Sequence record: OQ174500.1
Strand: one strand, 5' to 3'
Length of the DNA: 64,000 nucleotides
Origin: Escherichia phage REP1
Shown here: piece after piece, positions 18,305 through 29,878 of the stretch
Layout: every line of letters begins with the position of its first letter
Position numbering within the stretch: position 1 is the first letter of the stretch
Translations under genes and position numbers: made by a program
The notes under the pieces: generated by a model
Told to the model about the DNA's origin: nothing
What the model saw: the letters and a program-made list of their open reading frames with translations, nothing else
Database searches by the model: none

Positions 18305-21001
18305 ATGAAAGAATTTTATATCTCTATCGAAACAGTCGGAAATAACATTGTTGAACGTTATATTGATGAAAATGGAAAGGAACGTACTCGTGAAGTAGAA
18401 TATCTTCCAACTATGTTTAGACACTGTAAGGAAGAATCAAAATACAAAGACATTTACGGTAAAAACTGTGCTCCTCAAAAATTTCCATCAATGAAAGATG
18501 CCCGAGATTGGATGAAACGAATGGAAGACATCGGTCTCGAAGCTCTCGGTATGAACGATTTTAAACTCGCTTATATCAGTGATACATACGGTTCAGAAAT
18601 TGTTTATGACCGAAAATTTGTTCGTGTAGCTAACTGTGACATTGAGGTTACTGGTGATAAATTTCCTGACCCAATGAAAGCTGAATATGAAATTGATGCT
18701 ATCACTCATTACGATTCAATTGATGATCGTTTTTATGTTTTCGACCTTTTGAATTCAATGTATGGTTCAGTATCAAAATGGGATGCAAAGTTAGCTGCTA
18801 AGCTTGACTGTGAAGGTGGTGATGAAGTTCCTCAAGAAATTCTTGACCGAGTAATTTATATGCCATTCGATAATGAGCGTGATATGCTCATGGAATATAT
18901 CAATCTCTGGGAACAGAAACGACCTGCTATTTTTACTGGTTGGAATATTGAGGGGTTTGACGTTCCGTATATCATGAATCGCGTTAAAATGGTTCTCGGT
19001 GAACGTAGTATGAAACGCTTCTCTCCAATCGGTCGAGTAAAATCTAAACTAATTCAAAATATGTACGGTAGCAAAGAAATTTATTCTATTGATGGCGTAT
19101 CTATTCTTGATTATTTAGATTTGTACAAGAAATTCGCTTTTACTAATTTGCCGTCATTCTCTTTGGAATCAGTTGCTCAACATGAAACCAAAAAAGGTAA
19201 ATTACCATACGACGGTCCTATTAATAAACTTCGTGAGACTAATCATCAACGATACATTAGTTATAACATCATTGACGTAGAATCAGTTCAAGCAATTGAT
19301 AAAATTCGCGGGTTTATCGATCTAGTTTTAAGTATGTCTTATTACGCTAAAATGCCTTTTTCCGGTGTAATGAGTCCTATTAAAACTTGGGATGCTATTA
19401 TTTTTAACTCATTGAAAGGTGAACATAAGGTTATTCCTCAACAAGGTTCGCACGTTAAACAGAGTTTTCCGGGTGCATTCGTATTTGAACCTAAACCAAT
19501 TGCTCGTCGATATATTATGAGTTTTGACTTGACGTCTCTGTATCCGAGCATTATTCGTCAGGTTAACATTAGTCCTGAGACTATTCGTGGACAGTTTAAA
19601 GTTCATCCAATTCATGAATATATCGCAGGAACAGCTCCTAAACCGAGTGATGAATATTCTTGTTCTCCGAATGGATGGATGTATGATAAGCATCAAGAAG
19701 GTATCATTCCAAAGGAAATCGCTAAAGTATTTTTCCAGCGTAAAGATTGGAAAAAGAAAATGTTCGCTGAAGAAATGAATGCCGAAGCTATTAAAAAGAT
19801 TATTATGAAAGGCGCAGGGTCCTGTTCAACTAAACCAGAAGTTGAACGATATGTTAAGTTCAGTGATGATTTCTTAAATGAACTATCGAATTATACTGAA
19901 TCTGTTCTCAATAGTCTGATTGAGGAATGTGAAAAAGCGGCTACACTTGCTAATACAAATCAACTGAACCGTAAAATTCTCATTAACAGTCTTTATGGTG
20001 CTCTTGGTAATATTCATTTCCGTTACTATGATTTGCGAAATGCTACTGCTATCACAATTTTCGGCCAAGTTGGTATTCAGTGGATTGCTCGTAAAATTAA
20101 TGAATATCTGAATAAAGTATGCGGAACTAATGGTGAAGATTTCATCGCAGCAGGTGATACTGATTCGGTATATGTTTGTGTAGATAAAGTTATTGAAAAA
20201 GTTGGTCTTGACCGATTCAAAGAGCAGAACGATTTGGTTGAATTCATGAATCAGTTCGGTAAGAAAAAGATGGAACCTATGATTGATGTTGCATATCGTG
20301 AGTTATGTGATTATATGAATAACCGCGAGCATCTGATGCATATGGACCGTGAAGCTATTTCTTGTCCTCCACTTGGTTCAAAGGGCGTTGGCGGATTTTG
20401 GAAAGCGAAAAAGCGTTATGCTCTGAACGTTTATGATATGGAAGATAAGCGTTTTGCTGAACCACATCTAAAAATCATGGGTATGGAAACTCAGCAGAGT
20501 TCAACGCCTAAAGCGGTCCAAGAAGCTCTCGAAGAAAGTATTCGTCGTATTCTTCAGGAAGGTGAAGAGTCTGTCCAAGAATATTACAAAAACTTCGAGA
20601 AAGAATATCGTCAACTTGACTATAAAGTTATTGCTGAAGTAAAAACTGCGAACGATATAGCGAAATATGATGATAAAGGTTGGCCAGGATTTAAATGCCC
20701 GTTCCATATTCGTGGTGTGCTAACTTATCGTCGAGCTGTTAGTGGTCTGGGTGTAGCTCCAATTTTGGATGGAAATAAGGTAATGGTTCTTCCATTGCGT
20801 GAAGGAAATCCATTTGGTGACAAGTGCATTGCTTGGCCGTCGGGCACAGAACTTCCAAAAGAAATTCGTTCTGATGTACTGTCTTGGATTGACTACTCAA
20901 CTTTGTTCCAAAAATCGTTTGTTAAACCGCTTGCGGGTATGTGTGAATCGGCTGGTATGGACTATGAAGAAAAAGCTTCGTTAGACTTCCTGTTTGGCTG
21001 A
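18305..21001 (+). CDS. 43: DNA polymerase gp43 (family B)
   Basis: 898 aa; pol motifs DLTSLYPS and GDTDS; matches T4 gp43. Confidence 0.97.
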   Translation: MKEFYISIETVGNNIVERYIDENGKERTREVEYLPTMFRHCKEESKYKDIYGKNCAPQKFPSMKDARDWMKRMEDIGLEALGMNDFKLAYISDTYGSEIVYDRKFVRVANCDIEVTGDKFPDPMKAEYEIDAITHYDSIDDRFYVFDLLNSMYGSVSKWDAKLAAKLDCEGGDEVPQEILDRVIYMPFDNERDMLMEYINLWEQKRPAIFTGWNIEGFDVPYIMNRVKMVLGERSMKRFSPIGRVKSKLIQNMYGSKEIYSIDGVSILDYLDLYKKFAFTNLPSFSLESVAQHETKKGKLPYDGPINKLRETNHQRYISYNIIDVESVQAIDKIRGFIDLVLSMSYYAKMPFSGVMSPIKTWDAIIFNSLKGEHKVIPQQGSHVKQSFPGAFVFEPKPIARRYIMSFDLTSLYPSIIRQVNISPETIRGQFKVHPIHEYIAGTAPKPSDEYSCSPNGWMYDKHQEGIIPKEIAKVFFQRKDWKKKMFAEEMNAEAIKKIIMKGAGSCSTKPEVERYVKFSDDFLNELSNYTESVLNSLIEECEKAATLANTNQLNRKILINSLYGALGNIHFRYYDLRNATAITIFGQVGIQWIARKINEYLNKVCGTNGEDFIAAGDTDSVYVCVDKVIEKVGLDRFKEQNDLVEFMNQFGKKKMEPMIDVAYRELCDYMNNREHLMHMDREAISCPPLGSKGVGGFWKAKKRYALNVYDMEDKRFAEPHLKIMGMETQQSSTPKAVQEALEESIRRILQEGEESVQEYYKNFEKEYRQLDYKVIAEVKTANDIAKYDDKGWPGFKCPFHIRGVLTYRRAVSGLGVAPILDGNKVMVLPLREGNPFGDKCIAWPSGTELPKEIRSDVLSWIDYSTLFQKSFVKPLAGMCESAGMDYEEKASLDFLFG

Positions 21002-25407: not shown

Positions 25408-26835
25408 GTGGTAGAAATTATTCTTTCTCATCTCATATTTGATCAAGCTTATTTTTCAAAAGTTTGGCCATATATGGATTCAGAATATTTTGAAAGTGGT
25501 CCAGCTAAAAATACATTCAAATTAATTAAATCTCATGTTAACGAGTATCATAGCGTTCCATCTATTAATGCGTTAAATGTTGCGTTAGAAAATAGTTCAT
25601 TTACTGAAACAGAATATTCTGGTGTAAAAACACTTATTTCAAAACTGGCTGATTCTCCAGAAGACCACAGTTGGTTAGTAAAAGAAACAGAAAAATATGT
25701 TCAGCAAAGGGCGATGTTTAATGCTACGTCTAAAATAATCGAAATTCAAACTAATGCTGAACTTCCTCCGGAAAAACGAAATAAGAAAATGCCGGATGTT
25801 GGTGCTATTCCTGACATCATGCGTCAAGCATTATCAATTTCATTTGATAGCTACGTTGGTCATGATTGGATGGATGACTACGAAGCACGCTGGCTATCTT
25901 ATATGAATAAAGCTCGTAAGGTTCCATTTAAACTTCGTATTTTGAATAAAATTACAAAAGGCGGAGCTGAAACAGGAACACTGAACGTTTTAATGGCTGG
26001 CGTTAACGTTGGTAAATCATTAGGACTTTGCTCATTAGCAGCAGATTATTTGCAGCTTGGTCATAACGTTCTTTATATCTCCATGGAAATGGCAGAAGAA
26101 GTCTGTGCTAAACGTATTGATGCTAACATGCTCGATGTTTCTCTTGACGATATTGATGATGGACATATTTCTTACGCCGAATATAAAGGAAAAATGGAAA
26201 AATGGCGTGAGAAATCTACTCTCGGTCGTTTAATCGTTAAGCAATATCCTACTGGTGGAGCAGACGCTAATACATTCAGGTCTCTCTTGAATGAATTGAA
26301 GCTCAAGAAGAATTTTGTTCCAACAATCATTATTGTCGACTATCTAGGTATTTGTAAATCTTGCCGCATTAGAGTTTATTCAGAAAATAGTTACACAACT
26401 GTTAAAGCTATCGCAGAGGAATTACGTGCTCTGGCTGTTGAAACAGAAACTGTTCTTTGGACTGCAGCACAGGTTGGTAAACAAGCTTGGGACTCTTCCG
26501 ATGTTAACATGAGCGATATTGCAGAATCTGCTGGTCTTCCAGCAACAGCTGATTTTATGCTTGCGGTCATTGAAACCGAGGAGCTAGCAGCTGCTGAACA
26601 ACAACTCATTAAGCAAATCAAATCACGATATGGTGATAAGAATAAGTGGAATAAGTTTTTGATGGGTGTTCAAAAAGGAAATCAAAAGTGGGTAGAAATT
26701 GAACAAGATTCTACTCCAACTGAAGTGAGTGAAGTAGCAGGTTCACAACAGATTCAGGCTGAACAGAATCGCTATCAAAGAAATGAATCCACTCGAGCTC
26801 AGTTAGATGCTTTGGCAAATGAATTAAAATTTTAG
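25408..26835 (+). CDS. 41: replicative DNA helicase gp41 (DnaB-like)
   Basis: 475 aa; GTG start; Walker A GVNVGKS; matches T4 gp41. Confidence 0.95.
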   Translation: MVEIILSHLIFDQAYFSKVWPYMDSEYFESGPAKNTFKLIKSHVNEYHSVPSINALNVALENSSFTETEYSGVKTLISKLADSPEDHSWLVKETEKYVQQRAMFNATSKIIEIQTNAELPPEKRNKKMPDVGAIPDIMRQALSISFDSYVGHDWMDDYEARWLSYMNKARKVPFKLRILNKITKGGAETGTLNVLMAGVNVGKSLGLCSLAADYLQLGHNVLYISMEMAEEVCAKRIDANMLDVSLDDIDDGHISYAEYKGKMEKWREKSTLGRLIVKQYPTGGADANTFRSLLNELKLKKNFVPTIIIVDYLGICKSCRIRVYSENSYTTVKAIAEELRALAVETETVLWTAAQVGKQAWDSSDVNMSDIAESAGLPATADFMLAVIETEELAAAEQQLIKQIKSRYGDKNKWNKFLMGVQKGNQKWVEIEQDSTPTEVSEVAGSQQIQAEQNRYQRNESTRAQLDALANELKF

Positions 26836-26866
26836 TTTACAAGCTGGCAAGACTATGGTATAGTAG
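26835..26866 (+). promoter_or_regulatory. T4-type early promoter (GTTTAC, 18 nt, TATAGT)
   Basis: Directly downstream of gene 41, upstream of dmd. Confidence 0.5.
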
Positions 26867-26893
26867 TCTTGTTGGTTAAATGAGGAGATTGTT

Positions 26894-27076
26894 ATGGAAT
26901 TAGTAAAGGTAGTTTTTATGGGGTGGTTTAAGAATGAAAGCATGTTTACTAAAGAAATCACAATGATGAAAGATGACGTTCAATGGGCTACTACTCAATA
27001 TGCTGAAGTTAATAAAGCATTAGTTAAAGCTTTCATTGATGACAAGCAAGTGTGTGAAGTAGATTGCAGAGGATAA
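26894..27076 (+). CDS. dmd: Dmd antitoxin (inhibitor of host RnlA/LsoA toxins)
   Basis: 60 aa; MELVKVVFMGWFKNESMFTKEI... matches T4 Dmd. Confidence 0.85.
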   Translation: MELVKVVFMGWFKNESMFTKEITMMKDDVQWATTQYAEVNKALVKAFIDDKQVCEVDCRG

Positions 27077-27077
27077 T

Positions 27078-27335
27078 ATGCATATTGTTTTATTTAAACC
27101 TACTCCGTATAATGTTAGGAAAAATACTCAATTCAAGGCACTTATTGCGGATACGTGGGAATTGGTGTTAGATATTCCAGCAGAAGAAAGTCCTCCATTT
27201 GGTCGAGTGGAATTTATTAAGTTTGCTGTGCGCCCTACGAAGCGACAGATTCGCCAATGCAAAAGATACTTTCGTAAAATCGTCAAGTTAGAGAAACAGT
27301 TTGTAACATGTGATTATGCAGAAGTTTTAAAATAG
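27078..27335 (+). CDS. hypothetical protein (61.4-like)
   Basis: 85-aa ORF. Confidence 0.5.
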   Translation: MHIVLFKPTPYNVRKNTQFKALIADTWELVLDIPAEESPPFGRVEFIKFAVRPTKRQIRQCKRYFRKIVKLEKQFVTCDYAEVLK

Positions 27336-27337
27336 CT

Positions 27338-27366
27338 GTTTACTTTTGTTGGAAATTGATATACTA
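27338..27366 (+). promoter_or_regulatory. early promoter (GTTTAC ... TATACT)
   Basis: ctGTTTACttttgttggaaattgaTATACT upstream of sp. Confidence 0.45.
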
Positions 27367-27395
27367 TATAAACATAAACTACTGAGGAGATTATC

Positions 27396-27689
27396 ATGAA
27401 AAAATTTATTTTTGCTACAATTTTTACTTTGGCTTCTTGTGCTGCTCAGCCTTCTATGGCAGGATATGATAAAGATTTGTGTGAATGGTCTATGACTGCA
27501 GATCAGACTGAAGTTGAAACTCAAATTGAAGCGGATATTATGAATATCGTTGAGCGCGATCGTCCTGAAATGAAAGCTGAAGTGCAAAAACAACTTAAGT
27601 CTGGTGGTGTAATGCAGTATAATTATGTTCTGTATTGCGATAAAAACTTTAATAACAAAAATATCGTAACCGAAATCACAGGCGAATAA
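27396..27689 (+). CDS. sp: spackle periplasmic protein Sp
   Basis: 97 aa; N-terminal signal peptide MKKFIFATIFTLASCAAQPSMA; length and position match T4 sp. Confidence 0.75.
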   Translation: MKKFIFATIFTLASCAAQPSMAGYDKDLCEWSMTADQTEVETQIEADIMNIVERDRPEMKAEVQKQLKSGGVMQYNYVLYCDKNFNNKNIVTEITGE

Positions 27690-27690
27690 T

Positions 27691-28323
27691 ATGATTTATT
27701 ATATGCACAAAAATCCACCGTTTAAATACGGTAAATTTCCTGATGCACAATGTTATAATATAACGCCTGATGAAAATAACCGTGGATATCTTATTGGCAC
27801 AATTTTTGTAATTGTTAAAGATAACGAAATCGTTGCCTGGGCAGATTTTAAAGGTACAACATATGATGTTAATCCGGTGCCTTTCACATATTACAATTTA
27901 ATGGATTTGGCATACGATTATAATTGGTTTAATCATGACACTTTGGCTCATATTGAAGGTGTAGGATTTGATATTTCATATTCGGAATACACTTTAAGCC
28001 CTATGAGTCGAGCCCATAAAGAACCTGAATATTTTTCATTTAGGAAACGTTTAAACTTTAAACGCAGCACAGAGTATGTCGGTGGAATCTTTGTTAAAGA
28101 TAATCGAATTATTCGTATTAATTATGCTTTGAGCGTTAGTCAAAAAGATATTGATGTTGATTTAGATTTCACTGAAAATAATATTAATAATATTGCTTCT
28201 GTGTATTTTGGTATCGATCACAAAATTGTAATATGTGGATATGAATTACCGTTTGAAGAACAGCCTAAAGTAAAAGTTTCTATTGACGATCAAATTTTTA
28301 ATGCTTTTATGAATAAAGGTTAA
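27691..28323 (+). CDS. hypothetical protein with internal domain repeat (61.2-like)
   Basis: 210 aa; two VKDNxI-containing repeats; C-terminal SIDDQIFNAFMNKG. Confidence 0.5.
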   Translation: MIYYMHKNPPFKYGKFPDAQCYNITPDENNRGYLIGTIFVIVKDNEIVAWADFKGTTYDVNPVPFTYYNLMDLAYDYNWFNHDTLAHIEGVGFDISYSEYTLSPMSRAHKEPEYFSFRKRLNFKRSTEYVGGIFVKDNRIIRINYALSVSQKDIDVDLDFTENNINNIASVYFGIDHKIVICGYELPFEEQPKVKVSIDDQIFNAFMNKG

Positions 28324-28324
28324 T

Positions 28325-28681
28325 ATGTATAGTTCTGAATTTTCATATTTAAAAATGGAAAAAATTTCATACGATTTTATAGATGAAAAGGTTTATTACA
28401 GTTTCCATGAACCGCGTTTTAATAGTGAGGTTGGGTTTATTGTAGTAAAAGACAATTTCATTTTAAAGATATATTCGGCATTAAAGGATTTTCACTACGA
28501 AAATATTAACCTAAAATTTGATAAAGAAAACGTTCGTAATTGTGCAGTAACAATTACAGGAAATAAAGGTACATGTGTTATGCTATCTGATGAAATTAAT
28601 GATTTGCTAAATGATGCAGAAAATATTACTGCGCCATCTATTGATGACCAAATTTTTAATGCTTTTATGAATAGAGGTTAA
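28325..28681 (+). CDS. hypothetical protein, paralog of preceding ORF
   Basis: 118 aa; VKDNFIL motif and near-identical C-terminal SIDDQIFNAFMNRG. Confidence 0.45.
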   Translation: MYSSEFSYLKMEKISYDFIDEKVYYSFHEPRFNSEVGFIVVKDNFILKIYSALKDFHYENINLKFDKENVRNCAVTITGNKGTCVMLSDEINDLLNDAENITAPSIDDQIFNAFMNRG

Positions 28682-28682
28682 T

Positions 28683-28847
28683 ATGAAAACATATAAAGAA
28701 TTTATTAAAGAAGATATGGTCGCTGGAGATTCAGGTGGTAATCCTGAAAATATCTCTACTGGAACAACGTCAGGTGCTGTAGTAAATAAAGGTCCTGAAC
28801 AGATTCCTAAAAAGAAAAAAGAGGAATCTAAAGAAAAAGAAGAGTAA
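28683..28847 (+). CDS. hypothetical small Lys/Glu-rich protein (61.1-like); end uncertain
   Basis: ATG 1 nt after upstream stop; about 42-54 aa depending on exact reading. Confidence 0.3.
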   Translation: MKTYKEFIKEDMVAGDSGGNPENISTGTTSGAVVNKGPEQIPKKKKEESKEKEE

Positions 28848-28849
28848 AA

Positions 28850-29878
28850 ATGTCATCAATACCTTGGATTGATAATGAGTTTGCATACCGTGCATTAGCT
28901 CATCTACCTAAATTCACACAAGTAAATAATAGTTCAACTTTTAAATTACGGTTTAGATGTCCTGTTTGTGGAGATTCAAAAACCGATCAAAATAAAGCCC
29001 GTGGATGGTATTATGGCGATAATAATGAAGGAAATATTCATTGTTATAACTGTAATTATCATGCACCAATCGGAATATATTTAAAGGAGTTTGAACCTGA
29101 TTTATATCGTGAGTATATCTTTGAAATAAGAAAAGAAAAAGGTAAAAGTCGTCCAGTAGAAAAACCTAAAGAACTTCCTAAGCAACCTGAGAAGAAAATA
29201 ATTAAATCTCTTCCGTCATGTGTTAGATTAGATAAACTGGCGGAAGACCATCCAATTATAAAATATGTAAAAGCTCGTTGTATTCCAAAGGATAAATGGA
29301 AATATCTTTGGTTTACAACCGAATGGCCTAAATTAGTTAATAGCATAGCACCGGGAACATACAAAAAGGAAATTTCTGAGCCTCGTCTTGTTATTCCAAT
29401 TTATAATGCTAATGGAAAAGCTGAGTCTTTTCAAGGACGTGCATTAAAGAAAGATGCTCCACAAAAGTATATCACCATCAAAGCTTATCCTGAGGCAACA
29501 AAAATTTACGGTGTTGAACGAGTTAAAGATGGTGATGTATATGTTCTAGAAGGACCCATCGATTCACTTTTTATTGAAAATGGTATAGCCATTACTGGCG
29601 GTCAATTAGACCTAGAAGTTGTTCCATTTAAAGATAGACGAGTGTGGGTTTTAGATAATGAACCTCGTCACCCTGACACTATCAAACGAATGACTAAATT
29701 AGTTGATGCAGGAGAAAGGGTTATGTTTTGGGATAAATCTCCCTGGAAATCAAAAGATGTTAATGATATGATTAGAAAGGAAGGTGCAACCCCTGAACAA
29801 ATTATGGAATATATGAAAAATAATATTGCCCAGGGGTTGATGGCTAAAATGCGGTTATCTAAATATGCTAAGATTTAA
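28850..29878 (+). CDS. 61: DNA primase gp61
   Basis: 342 aa; N-terminal zinc ribbon CPVCGDS...CYNCNYH; matches T4 gp61. Confidence 0.93.
   Translation: MSSIPWIDNEFAYRALAHLPKFTQVNNSSTFKLRFRCPVCGDSKTDQNKARGWYYGDNNEGNIHCYNCNYHAPIGIYLKEFEPDLYREYIFEIRKEKGKSRPVEKPKELPKQPEKKIIKSLPSCVRLDKLAEDHPIIKYVKARCIPKDKWKYLWFTTEWPKLVNSIAPGTYKKEISEPRLVIPIYNANGKAESFQGRALKKDAPQKYITIKAYPEATKIYGVERVKDGDVYVLEGPIDSLFIENGIAITGGQLDLEVVPFKDRRVWVLDNEPRHPDTIKRMTKLVDAGERVMFWDKSPWKSKDVNDMIRKEGATPEQIMEYMKNNIAQGLMAKMRLSKYAKI

What the first reader, a model, noticed from the sequence alone, without database searches (positions are those of the whole stretch)
27691..28681. Domain duplication with a near-identical C-terminal tail in the 41-61 intergenic cluster
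The 210-aa and 118-aa ORFs both end with SIDDQIFNAFMN(K/R)G, encoded by an almost identical ~45-nt DNA repeat. Both contain VKDNxI...Y.AL repeats, two copies in the larger protein and one in the smaller. This points to a recent duplication next to sp and dmd, a region devoted to exclusion and anti-toxin functions.
Basis: seen in the sequence. Interest (0 to 1): 0.4.

Follow-up and report, generated by a model that had tools for sequence, protein, structure and literature searches.

The report
AdfA, half-size paralogue, promoter-bearing tail
The two ORFs are the known T4-like anti-DarT gene adfA (61.2) and an old, uncharacterised half-size paralogue; their near-identical ends reflect an invariant peptide tail overlapping a known middle promoter and the next gene's start signals, not a recent duplication.

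Summary
ORFs 27691-28323 (210 aa) and 28325-28681 (118 aa) both end in SIDDQIFNAFMN(K/R)G, encoded by a 49-nt direct repeat (46/49 identical, 358 nt apart).

The 210-aa protein is AdfA, T4 gene 61.2, anti-DarT factor A. The 118-aa protein is a single-domain paralogue of AdfA's C-terminal half. That half holds the residue that sets DarT1 binding.

The duplication is old. DNA identity outside the tail is 46%. The 118-aa gene is under purifying selection, occurs in about 300 phage records, and stands alone in T2.

The tail is invariant in at least three protein families, all located directly after sp, in four Tevenvirinae genera. Its DNA also carries the mapped T4 middle promoter P61 (MotA box inside the N-A-F-M codons, -10 TAATAT across the stop/start overlap) and the next gene's ribosome-binding site.

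Removing one 358-nt repeat unit converts the two-gene arrangement exactly into the T4 arrangement, so the repeats appear to act as recombination joints.

The functions of the 118-aa protein and of the tail peptide are inferred, not shown. Verdict: known gene plus an unstudied variant; moderate interest.

The parts
27691..28323 (+). adfA (T4 gene 61.2), anti-DarT factor A, 210 aa. It has two predicted beta-rich domains followed by the C-terminal tail.
   Evidence: Pfam PF23813 AdfA, full length, 456 bits. It is 72% identical to T4 gp61.2 and 80% to Mosigvirus AdfA. Ec_O157kw annotates the orthologue as 'anti-DarT factor A'.
28325..28681 (+). 118-aa single-domain paralogue of the AdfA C-terminal half (phrog_4122, RB32 ORF033c family). 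T4 and T6 lack it; in T2 it is present without adfA.
   Evidence: Pfam AdfA 31.9 bits (cut-off 27) over profile positions 113-211. phrog_4122 242 bits. SW shuffle test without tails 0/2000. dN/dS 0.04-0.32. AF2 pLDDT 82, pTM 0.71.
28279..28327 (+). Tail repeat, copy 1. It encodes SIDDQIFNAFMNKG, then the adfA stop codon overlapping the start codon of the 118-aa gene.
28637..28685 (+). Tail repeat, copy 2. It encodes SIDDQIFNAFMNRG, then the stop codon overlapping the 61.1 start codon. It is identical to the 3' end of T4 gene 61.2.
28302..28326 (+). MotA-type middle-promoter motif inside copy 1: MotA box TGCTTTT 28302-28308, a 12-nt spacer, -10 TAATAT 28321-28326. The predicted start is near 28333, just inside the 118-aa ORF.
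   Evidence: Pattern match. The same 27 nt is annotated 'promoter' in phage Lutter. It is paralogous to the mapped T4 P61.
28660..28684 (+). Orthologue of the T4 middle promoter P61: MotA box TGCTTTT 28660-28666, a 12-nt spacer, -10 TAATAT 28679-28684. The predicted start is A 28691, 8 nt downstream of the A of the 61.1 ATG.
   Evidence: T4 P61 start site 19122 (PMC2988021 Table 1), placed on NC_000866 coordinates. The sequence is identical to T4. Lutter annotates a promoter here. Pattern match.
28189..28191 (+). Codon for AdfA Asn167. It aligns with RB69 AdfA position 164, where His permits and Arg prevents DarT1 binding.
   Evidence: Alignment A1. Motif table. PMC11257639.
27812..27824 (+). 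13-nt exact repeat TTGTTAAAGATAA, encoding the (I/F)VKDN beta-hairpin of the AdfA N-terminal domain. Its partner lies at 28091-28103 in the C-terminal domain.
   Evidence: family D4. AF2 strands flank both hairpins.

Best explanation
The window is a Tequatrovirus, and the interval holds two anti-defence-type genes. The first is adfA (61.2), a known inhibitor that binds the host DarT1 ADP-ribosyltransferase toxin. The second is an old, independently conserved, single-domain paralogue of AdfA's C-terminal domain. That domain carries the residue that decides DarT1 binding.

The shared end of about 49 nt is not a trace of recent duplication. It is a segment under several constraints at once.
(i) It encodes an invariant C-terminal peptide, (S/T/D/A)(I/V)DDQIFNAFM(N/K)(K/R)(G/D). 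AF2 predicts the peptide as an amphipathic helix on a flexible linker. At least three protein families carry it (AdfA, the 118-125-aa family and a 145-aa family), and all of them sit directly downstream of sp in Tequatro-, Mosig-, Gapriver- and Dhakaviruses.
(ii) Its last 27 nt are a MotA-dependent middle promoter. This is T4 P61, with the MotA box in the AAT GCT TTT ATG codons and the -10 TAATAT spanning the stop and start codons.
(iii) The (A/G)AGGT in its last two codons is the Shine-Dalgarno sequence for the next gene.

Because the two copies are direct repeats 358 nt apart, homologous recombination between them removes or adds exactly the 118-aa gene. That gives the T4/T6 arrangement.

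Shown here: gene identities, paralogy, distribution, tail invariance, promoter geometry, and exact colinearity after in-silico deletion. Taken from the literature: AdfA binds DarT1, and P61 is a mapped promoter. Inferred: the 118-aa protein is a second toxin-binding inhibitor with another specificity, and the tail peptide docks onto a conserved partner or mediates oligomerisation.
For: Gene identity: Pfam AdfA 456 bits for the 210-aa protein and 31.9 bits (above the 27 cut-off) for the 118-aa protein. phrogs 3781 and 4122 cross-match.

Context: 41-dmd-61.4-sp-adfA-118-61.1-61.

Old paralogy: 46% DNA identity outside the tail. The 118-aa gene is found in 337 records, including hits at 31-49% identity in other genera. 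It stands alone in T2, BF15 and L006. dN/dS is 0.04-0.32.

Tail peptide: it is invariant in every homologue examined, while codons differ between genera. The exact peptide gives 0 hits in 185,579 prokaryotic genomes. It gives 12 metagenome contigs, all T4-like; in all nine contigs where the upstream region is present, the tail gene follows sp directly.

Promoter: T4 P61 starts at 19122 (PMC2988021). On NC_000866 this places the -10 TAATAT, a 12-nt spacer and the box TGCTTTT exactly in the 61.2 tail. Both copies match TGCTTY-N12-14-TANNNT; the window has 24 such sites against 7.7 +/- 2.7 expected. Both copies are annotated as promoters in phage Lutter.

Recombination: the sp-to-61.1 interval is 624 nt with adfA only and 982 nt with the same allele type plus the 118-aa gene, a difference of exactly 358 nt; it is 990 nt with the window allele type plus 118, and 367-369 nt with 118 only. 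In-silico removal of one repeat unit from MG-36 or Shfl2 is gap-free and 98% identical to KRT47 and IMGVR-d over 1050 nt. The copy next to 61.1 always carries AGA GGT, whichever gene owns it. adfA-only phages are not monophyletic by adfA sequence.

Structure: in the 118-aa model a beta5-alpha-beta-alpha core has pLDDT about 90, followed by a linker below 50 and a tail helix at 54-59.
Against: No experiment here or in the literature tests the 118-aa protein.

T4 delta-adfA has no DarTG1 phenotype, so even AdfA's natural target is unclear (PMC11257639).

The window AdfA has Asn, not the DarT1-permissive His, at the specificity position.

RB69 AdfA has an intact tail but Arg164 and does not bind DarT1. 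The tail alone therefore does not confer DarT1 binding.

The MotA-box core varies between genera (GCT, GCC, GCA), so promoter function outside Tequatrovirus is uncertain.

Homologues were partly found through the tail itself, so tail-less relatives could have been missed.

The polarity of the 358-nt event (loss or gain) is not resolved.
Confidence: 0.75

Rival explanations
1. Recent tandem duplication: the 118-aa gene is a young copy of the 3' half of adfA, and the identical tail is what has not yet diverged.
For: The genes are adjacent and in the same orientation. They share a 49-nt repeat with 46/49 identity. The bodies are homologous.
Against: Divergence is all-or-none: 94% in the tail against 46% DNA identity immediately upstream. 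The small gene is a separate family with orthologues in other genera. It occurs without adfA in T2. An unrelated-looking 145-aa family carries the same tail.
Confidence: 0.04
2. The tail is conserved purely as DNA (middle promoter, Shine-Dalgarno sequence, stop/start overlap), and the peptide is an incidental read-out with no role of its own.
For: The mapped T4 promoter P61 lies exactly in the tail. N-A-F-M, as AAT GCT TTT ATG, almost spells a MotA box. The last two codons form the ribosome-binding site. Given the peptide, 5.5 differing codons are expected between the two window copies and 2 are observed (P = 0.03).
Against: Between genera, the synonymous third position of the Ala codon changes (T, C, A). 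That position is the centre of the MotA box GCTT. Asp, Gln, Ile and Phe codons also vary, yet none of the nine residues DDQIFNAFM changes. The DDQIF part lies upstream of the MotA box, outside the known promoter elements. Some Dhakavirus copies have TGATAT, a poor -10, but keep the peptide.
Confidence: 0.12
3. Concerted evolution only: the tails stay alike through repeated gene conversion or recombination between the copies and between co-infecting phages, without selection on the segment.
For: In L009 both copies share the unusual codons CAG, GCC and TTC, while sister genomes L004 and L008 differ between copies. Shfl2, RB33 and MG-36 have no synonymous difference between copies. Over the seven codons upstream of the promoter part, my own arithmetic from the codon frequencies gives P of about 0.01. 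Exact 358-nt indels show that the repeats do recombine.
Against: Conversion cannot explain zero amino-acid change across four genera, whose tails differ at synonymous sites. It also cannot explain the peptide in single-copy genomes such as Mosigvirus, Dhakavirus and T4.
Confidence: 0.08
4. The 118-aa ORF is a decaying fragment or a chance ORF, not a functional gene.
For: It is absent from T4 and T6. It is dispensable in those phages.
Against: dN/dS is 0.04-0.32 across ten phages. Length is conserved at 117-125 aa across genera. The AF2 core is confident. It is retained as the only family member in T2-type genomes.
Confidence: 0.02

Closest known systems
AdfA (anti-DarT factor A; T4 gp61.2; Pfam PF23813), LeRoux et al. 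2022 as described in PMC11257639 / PMC11825919
   Same: The 210-aa ORF is a full-length orthologue in the same genomic position. The 118-aa ORF matches the C-terminal half of the family profile above Pfam's cut-off. It keeps the VKDN hairpin, the (T/K)EN..x..A helix that holds the specificity residue, and the tail.
   Different: The window AdfA has Asn at the His/Arg164 specificity site, an allele the papers read here do not mention. The 118-aa protein has one domain instead of two, is about 35% identical, is absent from T4, and has never been tested. The cited papers call T2 'naturally lacking an adfA homolog' although T2 carries this paralogue.
T4 MotA/AsiA-dependent middle promoter P61 (start site 19122; Marshall, Sharma and Hinton 1999, listed in PMC2988021 Table 1)
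   Same: Copy 2 of the repeat is identical in sequence to the T4 promoter region: box TGCTTTT, 12-nt spacer, -10 TAATAT. Copy 1 differs by one spacer base.
   Different: In this phage a second copy precedes the extra 118-aa gene. Neither copy has been mapped experimentally here. The literature read here does not mention that the promoter lies inside conserved coding sequence.
PeSL mobile regulatory cassettes of T4-type phages (Arbiol et al. 2010, PMC2839356; Comeau et al. 2014, PMC4122927)
   Same: Short promoter-bearing repeats lie at gene boundaries, and their positions coincide with exact gain or loss of an ORF between close relatives.
   Different: As described from my own recollection of those papers beyond their abstracts, PeSLs are intergenic early promoter plus stem-loop units. 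This repeat is coding, carries a middle promoter, and has no stem-loop.
Dmd and other antitoxin-mimic or toxin-binding phage proteins of the same cluster (PMC10286901)
   Same: A small early-region protein, encoded next to dmd and sp, that neutralises a host toxin by direct binding.

Membership tests
AdfA (Pfam PF23813) | Profile match above the curated gathering score | tested here: met
   The 210-aa protein scores 456.4 bits over 1-211/211. The 118-aa protein scores 31.9 bits against a cut-off of 27, but only over profile positions 113-211.
AdfA (Pfam PF23813) | Two-domain architecture of about 208-216 aa | tested here: not met
   This verdict is for the 118-aa protein, which has a single domain. 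The 210-aa protein meets the feature.
AdfA (Pfam PF23813) | Location directly downstream of sp, between genes 41 and 61 of a Tevenvirinae genome | tested here: met
AdfA (functional definition: neutralises DarT1) | His at RB69 position 164, which is required for DarT1 association in the two-hybrid assay | tested here: not met
   The window AdfA has Asn167 and the 118-aa protein has Asn72 at the aligned column. The His/Arg rule comes from PMC11257639.
AdfA (functional definition: neutralises DarT1) | Physical binding to a DarT toxin and rescue from it | not testable with these tools
   This needs co-expression or two-hybrid experiments.
T4 middle promoter (MotA/AsiA sigma appropriation) | MotA box (a/t)(a/t)(a/t)TGCTTtA positioned 12 +/- 1 bp upstream of a -10 TAnnnT | tested here: met
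   Both copies read TAATGCTTTT-N12-TAATAT, with 6 of 7 box positions matching. The consensus is from PMC2988021.
T4 middle promoter (MotA/AsiA sigma appropriation) | Correspondence to an experimentally mapped start site | tested here: met
   T4 P61 starts at 19122. The derived -10 and box fall on the 61.2 tail, which is identical to window copy 2. Copy 1 has no T4 counterpart.
T4 middle promoter (MotA/AsiA sigma appropriation) | MotA-dependent transcription in this phage | not testable with these tools
   This needs 5'-end mapping in motA+ and motA- infections.
PeSL mobile regulatory cassette | Intergenic early promoter plus stem-loop terminator | tested here: not met
   The repeat is coding. 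The RNA folds are not more stable than shuffles (z +2.0 and -1.2). No terminator-like site was found.
PeSL mobile regulatory cassette | Repeats coincide with exact boundaries of ORF gain or loss between close relatives | tested here: met
Recent segmental duplication | High DNA identity along the whole duplicated unit | tested here: not met
   Identity is 46% outside the 49-nt tail.
gp45 sliding-clamp-binding C-terminal peptide (a lead from memory) | SLDFL(F/Y)-type motif, as at the C-termini of gp43 and gp55 | tested here: not met
   The window gp43 ends ...ASLDFLFG and gp55 ends ...[10 protein letters not shown]. The tail shares only S-(I/L)-D.

The most novel reading that the evidence does not exclude
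The sp-adjacent genes form a small, T4-like-phage-specific superfamily of modular 'variable beta-rich domain plus invariant docking tail' proteins. In this reading AdfA is a fusion of a 145-aa-type module and a 118-aa-type module, which Gapriverviruses still encode as two adjacent genes. The invariant tail tethers differently specific toxin-binding domains to one conserved partner, or to each other. The 118-aa protein is then an independent counter-defence factor against a DarT-like or other toxin, so phages such as T2, said to 'lack adfA', would still carry half of the system.
Probability: 0.25. Interest if true: 0.6.

Novelty: new variant of a known kind. Interest (0 to 1): 0.4.

Why it matters
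AdfA is one of the few known phage inhibitors of the DarTG defence system, and its natural target in T4-like phages is still unclear. About 300 sequenced phages, including T2, carry an unstudied single-domain paralogue of exactly the AdfA domain that sets toxin specificity. This gives the DarT field a direct candidate for further counter-defence activity and a minimal domain for structural work.

An invariant peptide tail overlapping a mapped middle promoter and the next gene's translation signals is a compact example of multi-layer coding. It explains a striking local conservation without recent duplication.

The same repeats explain how T4 and T6 lost, or other phages gained, a gene by an exact 358-nt event. 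That extends the idea of promoter-bearing repeats as shuffling joints in T4-type genomes into coding sequence.

Tried and rejected
(1) RNA structure in the repeat. Folds of 28265-28345 and 28623-28703 are not more stable than shuffles.

(2) A generic sigma-70 promoter and terminator scan of 26700-29000. Hits were not above chance and there was no terminator. The scan cannot see MotA-type promoters, which needed a dedicated pattern.

(4) Host mimicry of the tail. The exact peptide-encoding pattern is absent from 185,579 bacterial and archaeal genomes.

(5) Tail as a gp45 clamp-binding peptide. It does not match the SLDFL(F/Y) ends of the window's own gp43 and gp55.

(6) BLASTP of the bodies without tails found nothing, and global-mode hhalign gave meaningless statistics. 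I replaced these with local hhalign and shuffle-calibrated Smith-Waterman.

(7) NCBIfam has no model for any of these proteins.

(8) The word-indexed protein search reached only close relatives. The exhaustive profile search showed the family is tiny, with 10 representative clusters in 1.84 billion proteins.

(9) The original AdfA paper (PMC9250638) is not held, so AdfA facts are cited from the follow-up paper and a review.

(10) My count of 'only third positions vary' in the 27-nt core is circular, because the search pattern allowed only those positions to vary. I do not use it as evidence.
Full report
OBSERVATION. The two + strand ORFs are as described: 27691-28323 (210 aa) and 28325-28681 (118 aa). 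They end in SIDDQIFNAFMNKG and SIDDQIFNAFMNRG. The repeat finder reports one 49-nt direct repeat, 28279-28327 and 28637-28685, 46/49 identical and 358 nt apart. It runs through the stop codon into the TAATATG that holds the next gene's start. Immediately upstream of the repeat the aligned DNA is only 46% identical (111/240). VKDN occurs twice in the large protein and once in the small one. A 13-nt exact repeat encodes the two copies in the large protein.

WHAT THE GENES ARE. The window is a Tequatrovirus: it is 99.8% identical to Shigella phage Phaginator over 26800-29000. The gene order is 41, dmd, 61.4, sp, the 210-aa ORF, the 118-aa ORF, 61.1, 61. The 210-aa protein matches Pfam PF23813 'Anti-DarT factor A' end to end at 456 bits and is the orthologue of T4 gp61.2. 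According to PMC11257639, AdfA was found through RB69 escape mutants. The R164H form associates with the DarT1 toxin in a bacterial two-hybrid assay, and the Arg164 form does not. The T4 allele restores RB69 infectivity on DarTG1 cells when expressed ectopically, yet T4 delta-adfA has no phenotype.

The 118-aa protein matches the same Pfam profile at 31.9 bits (cut-off 27), but only over positions 113-211, the C-terminal half. It is the founding member of phrog_4122. With both tails removed, its body is still clearly homologous to the AdfA C-half: Smith-Waterman 70 against 29 +/- 5.6 in 2000 shuffles and hhalign E = 3e-3. The shared features are the G-x-I-x-VKDN-x-I hairpin and the (T/K)EN-x-x-x-x-A helix. 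That helix holds the column of RB69 residue 164.

NOT A RECENT DUPLICATION. The 118-aa gene is found in 337 phage records by tblastn. About 294 of these are at 80% identity or more, and others are 31-49% identical in other genera. It is under purifying selection, with dN/dS 0.04-0.32 against nine relatives. It occurs in three arrangements:
- sp-adfA-118-61.1: the window, Shfl2, RB33, RB27, AV122. At least 157 records have the contiguous junction.
- sp-adfA-61.1: T4, T6, KRT47.
- sp-118-61.1 without adfA: T2, BF15, L006.
The papers on AdfA describe T2 as naturally lacking an adfA homologue, so this paralogue seems to have gone unnoticed. An exhaustive profile search of 1.84 billion representative proteins finds only 10 clusters. 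The superfamily is therefore tiny and confined to T4-like phages.

THE TAIL AS A PEPTIDE. Every homologue I examined ends in x(I/V)DDQIFNAFM(N/K)(K/R)(G/D). This covers:
- AdfA of Tequatrovirus and Mosigvirus (208-216 aa).
- The 117-125-aa family, including members only about 20-45% identical in the body (P0024, P0027, P0029).
- A 145-aa family, phrog_8539, in 86 records that include the JS98/JS10 (Dhakavirus) and VR-series/SP18 (Gaprivervirus) phages; those genus names are my own assignment, since one search lists no taxonomy. Its body shows no significant sequence similarity to AdfA, only the tail and a weak N-terminal motif. Its BFVD model is nevertheless a Foldseek hit for the 118-aa model (E = 4.5e-4, TMq 0.56).
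Gapriverviruses carry a 145-aa gene and a gene of about 120 aa in tandem, each with its own tail.

All these genes sit directly downstream of sp. Codons in the tail differ between genera: GAT/GAC, CAA/CAG, ATT/ATA, GCT/GCC/GCA, TTT/TTC, AGA/CGA. The nine core residues never change. The exact peptide is absent from 185,579 prokaryotic genomes. In 241 million metagenome records it occurs on 12 contigs, all T4-like. One caveat applies: several searches were partly driven by the tail, so tail-less relatives could have been missed.

AF2 models the 118-aa protein with a confident beta5-alpha-beta-alpha core (pLDDT about 90). The linker is disordered (residues 101-105 below 50) and the tail helix is low-confidence (54-59). 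From this I infer, without proof, that the tail is a docking or oligomerisation helix rather than part of the core. RB69 AdfA has an intact tail but Arg164 and does not bind DarT1, so the tail alone is not the DarT1-binding element.

THE TAIL AS DNA. The annotators of phage Lutter placed 27-nt 'promoter' features on both tail copies. Hinton's review lists a T4 middle promoter 'P61' with its start site at 19122. It gives the consensus as (a/t)(a/t)(a/t)TGCTTtA placed 12 +/- 1 bp from a -10 TAtaaT (PMC2988021).

On NC_000866, position 19122 is the A that lies 8 nt downstream of the A of the 61.1 start codon. The -10 (-12 to -7) is then TAATAT. This is the last T of the Gly codon, the TAA stop of 61.2 and the AT of the 61.1 ATG. 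The 12-nt spacer is ATGAATAGAGGT, and the MotA box is TGCTTTT, inside AAT GCT TTT ATG (N-A-F-M).

Window copy 2 is identical to this T4 sequence; copy 1 differs by one spacer base. Both match TGCTTY-N12-14-TANNNT. That pattern is enriched in the window, with 24 sites against 7.7 +/- 2.7 expected. The (A/G)AGGT in the last two codons is also the ribosome-binding site of the next gene.

The segment is therefore constrained at three or four levels. This accounts for most of the DNA-level identity. Given the peptide and the phage's codon usage, 5.5 differing codons are expected between the window copies and 2 are seen (P = 0.03). In the seven codons upstream of the promoter part, about 3.1 differences are expected and 2 are seen; this is my own arithmetic from the frequencies.

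Some homogenisation is still likely. Shfl2, RB33 and MG-36 have no synonymous difference at all between copies. L009 shares unusual codons between its two copies, unlike its sister genomes. The peptide constraint is at least as strong as the promoter constraint, because the centre of the MotA box (the third base of the Ala codon) varies between genera while the peptide does not.

THE REPEATS AS RECOMBINATION JOINTS. The sp-to-61.1 interval has a fixed length for each arrangement:
- 624 nt in adfA-only phages.
- 982 nt in phages with the same allele type plus the 118-aa gene, which is 624 + 358.
- 990 nt in phages with the window allele type plus the 118-aa gene.
- 367-369 nt in 118-only phages.
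Removing one repeat unit in silico from MG-36 or Shfl2 gives a sequence colinear with KRT47 and IMGVR-d. It has no gap and 20-25 mismatches in 1050 nt, spread over both flanks.

The copy next to 61.1 always reads AAT AGA GGT, whichever gene owns it. The proximal copy reads AAA GGT, or AGA GAT in RB27. adfA-only phages do not group together by adfA sequence: KRT47 is 98% identical to MG-36, which has both genes, but 95% to T4. The switch has therefore happened more than once or has spread by recombination. Polarity is not proven. The tandem two-gene state in Gapriverviruses suggests that two tail-bearing genes is the old condition.

T2-type genomes keep TAGAGGTTA(A/G)TATG upstream of the 118-aa gene. 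This may be a remnant of the adfA end, or simply the ribosome-binding site.

INTERNAL REPEAT IN AdfA. AF2 (pLDDT 71) predicts the same order of elements in both halves of AdfA: four to five strands with VKDN at a hairpin, then a helix. The 118-aa model has the same order. Sequence support for N-half homology is weak. hhalign gives E = 1.1e-3 against the 118 family over 44 columns and 2.9e-3 against the C-half over 11 columns. Shuffle P is 0.07 and 0.02. The claim of 'two copies in the larger protein' is plausible but not established.

FUNCTION. Established in the literature: AdfA-type proteins block DarT1 by binding it. Inferred here: the 118-aa protein is a stand-alone version of the specificity-bearing domain and probably binds a different toxin variant. 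Its aligned 'position 164' is Asn in most phages and His in one divergent lineage. The window's AdfA also has Asn there (N167), as do AV122 and one IMG/VR phage. Close relatives have His, and the papers read here do not mention the Asn allele.

T4 also carries AdfN against DarTG1 and AdfM/tk.4 against DarTG2, so layered and redundant anti-DarT genes are normal in this group.

Both genes lie downstream of a good early-type promoter located before dmd: 26836-26864, matching 10 of 12 positions, with a TG motif. The equivalent site is annotated as a promoter in Lutter. They are joined by overlapping stop and start codons, which fits early co-expression.

NOVELTY. adfA and P61 are already known. 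Three points are not in the literature I could search: the single-domain paralogue as a family member present in T2, the invariant tail shared by three sp-adjacent families, and the overlap of that tail with P61 together with its role as an exact indel joint. I rate the finding as a new variant of a known kind, of moderate interest.

Noticed in passing
window 28189-28191 (AdfA Asn167): The window's AdfA has Asn at the column of RB69 residue 164, where His allows and Arg prevents DarT1 binding. AV122 and one IMG/VR phage share Asn, while 95%-identical relatives have His. The papers read here do not mention the Asn allele.
   Followed up: partly
window 28683-28847 (61.1); L016 3079-3546, L019 2700-3167: The 54-aa 61.1 protein corresponds to the C-terminal third of a 155-aa protein in Mosigviruses (phrog_2086 positions 109-154 of 156). 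This suggests a fusion or fission at this gene. The mapped P61 start lies 8 nt inside the 61.1 ORF, so P61 transcripts cannot translate 61.1 from its annotated ATG.
   Followed up: partly
L018 2565-2786 (also L008, L009, L013-L020); window 27078-27335: A second DUF7279 (61.4-like) gene of 73 aa sits downstream of the tail-bearing genes in Dhaka- and Gapriverviruses. The sp/tail-gene block is therefore flanked by paralogous 61.4-like genes in those genera.
   Followed up: no
L003 1985-2003 (T2); L006; L026 (BF15): In adfA-less phages the 118-aa gene is preceded by TAGAGGTTA(A/G)TATG. This resembles the last 14 nt of adfA (ATAGAGGTTAATATG). It could be a deletion scar or just the conserved ribosome-binding site and start.
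   Followed up: partly
L014 3167-4800: In one Dhakavirus-like IMG/VR contig the primase gene 61 appears broken into several short ORFs with duplicated segments. A 176-aa ORF (MGSGGPLSRAKEKYGLENFEREILE...) is inserted ahead of it. This could be a homing-endonuclease-type insertion or an assembly problem.
   Followed up: no
window, whole: The MotA-box plus -10 pattern TGCTTY-N12-14-TANNNT occurs 24 times in the window against 7.7 +/- 2.7 expected. Most sites are on the + strand upstream of early and middle genes, giving a usable map of candidate middle promoters.
   Followed up: no
L024 395-586 (RB27): In RB27 the position of dmd is occupied by a 192-nt ORF annotated only as hypothetical, where dmd is 183 nt in the other phages. 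I did not check whether it is a divergent dmd or a replacement.
   Followed up: no
window 27691-28323 compared with relatives: adfA itself is mosaic. The window allele is closer to Mosigvirus AdfA (80% amino-acid identity) than to T4 AdfA (72%). AV122 combines a T4-type 5' part with a window-type 3' part, and P0012 shows the reverse pattern, which implies recombination inside the gene.
   Followed up: partly
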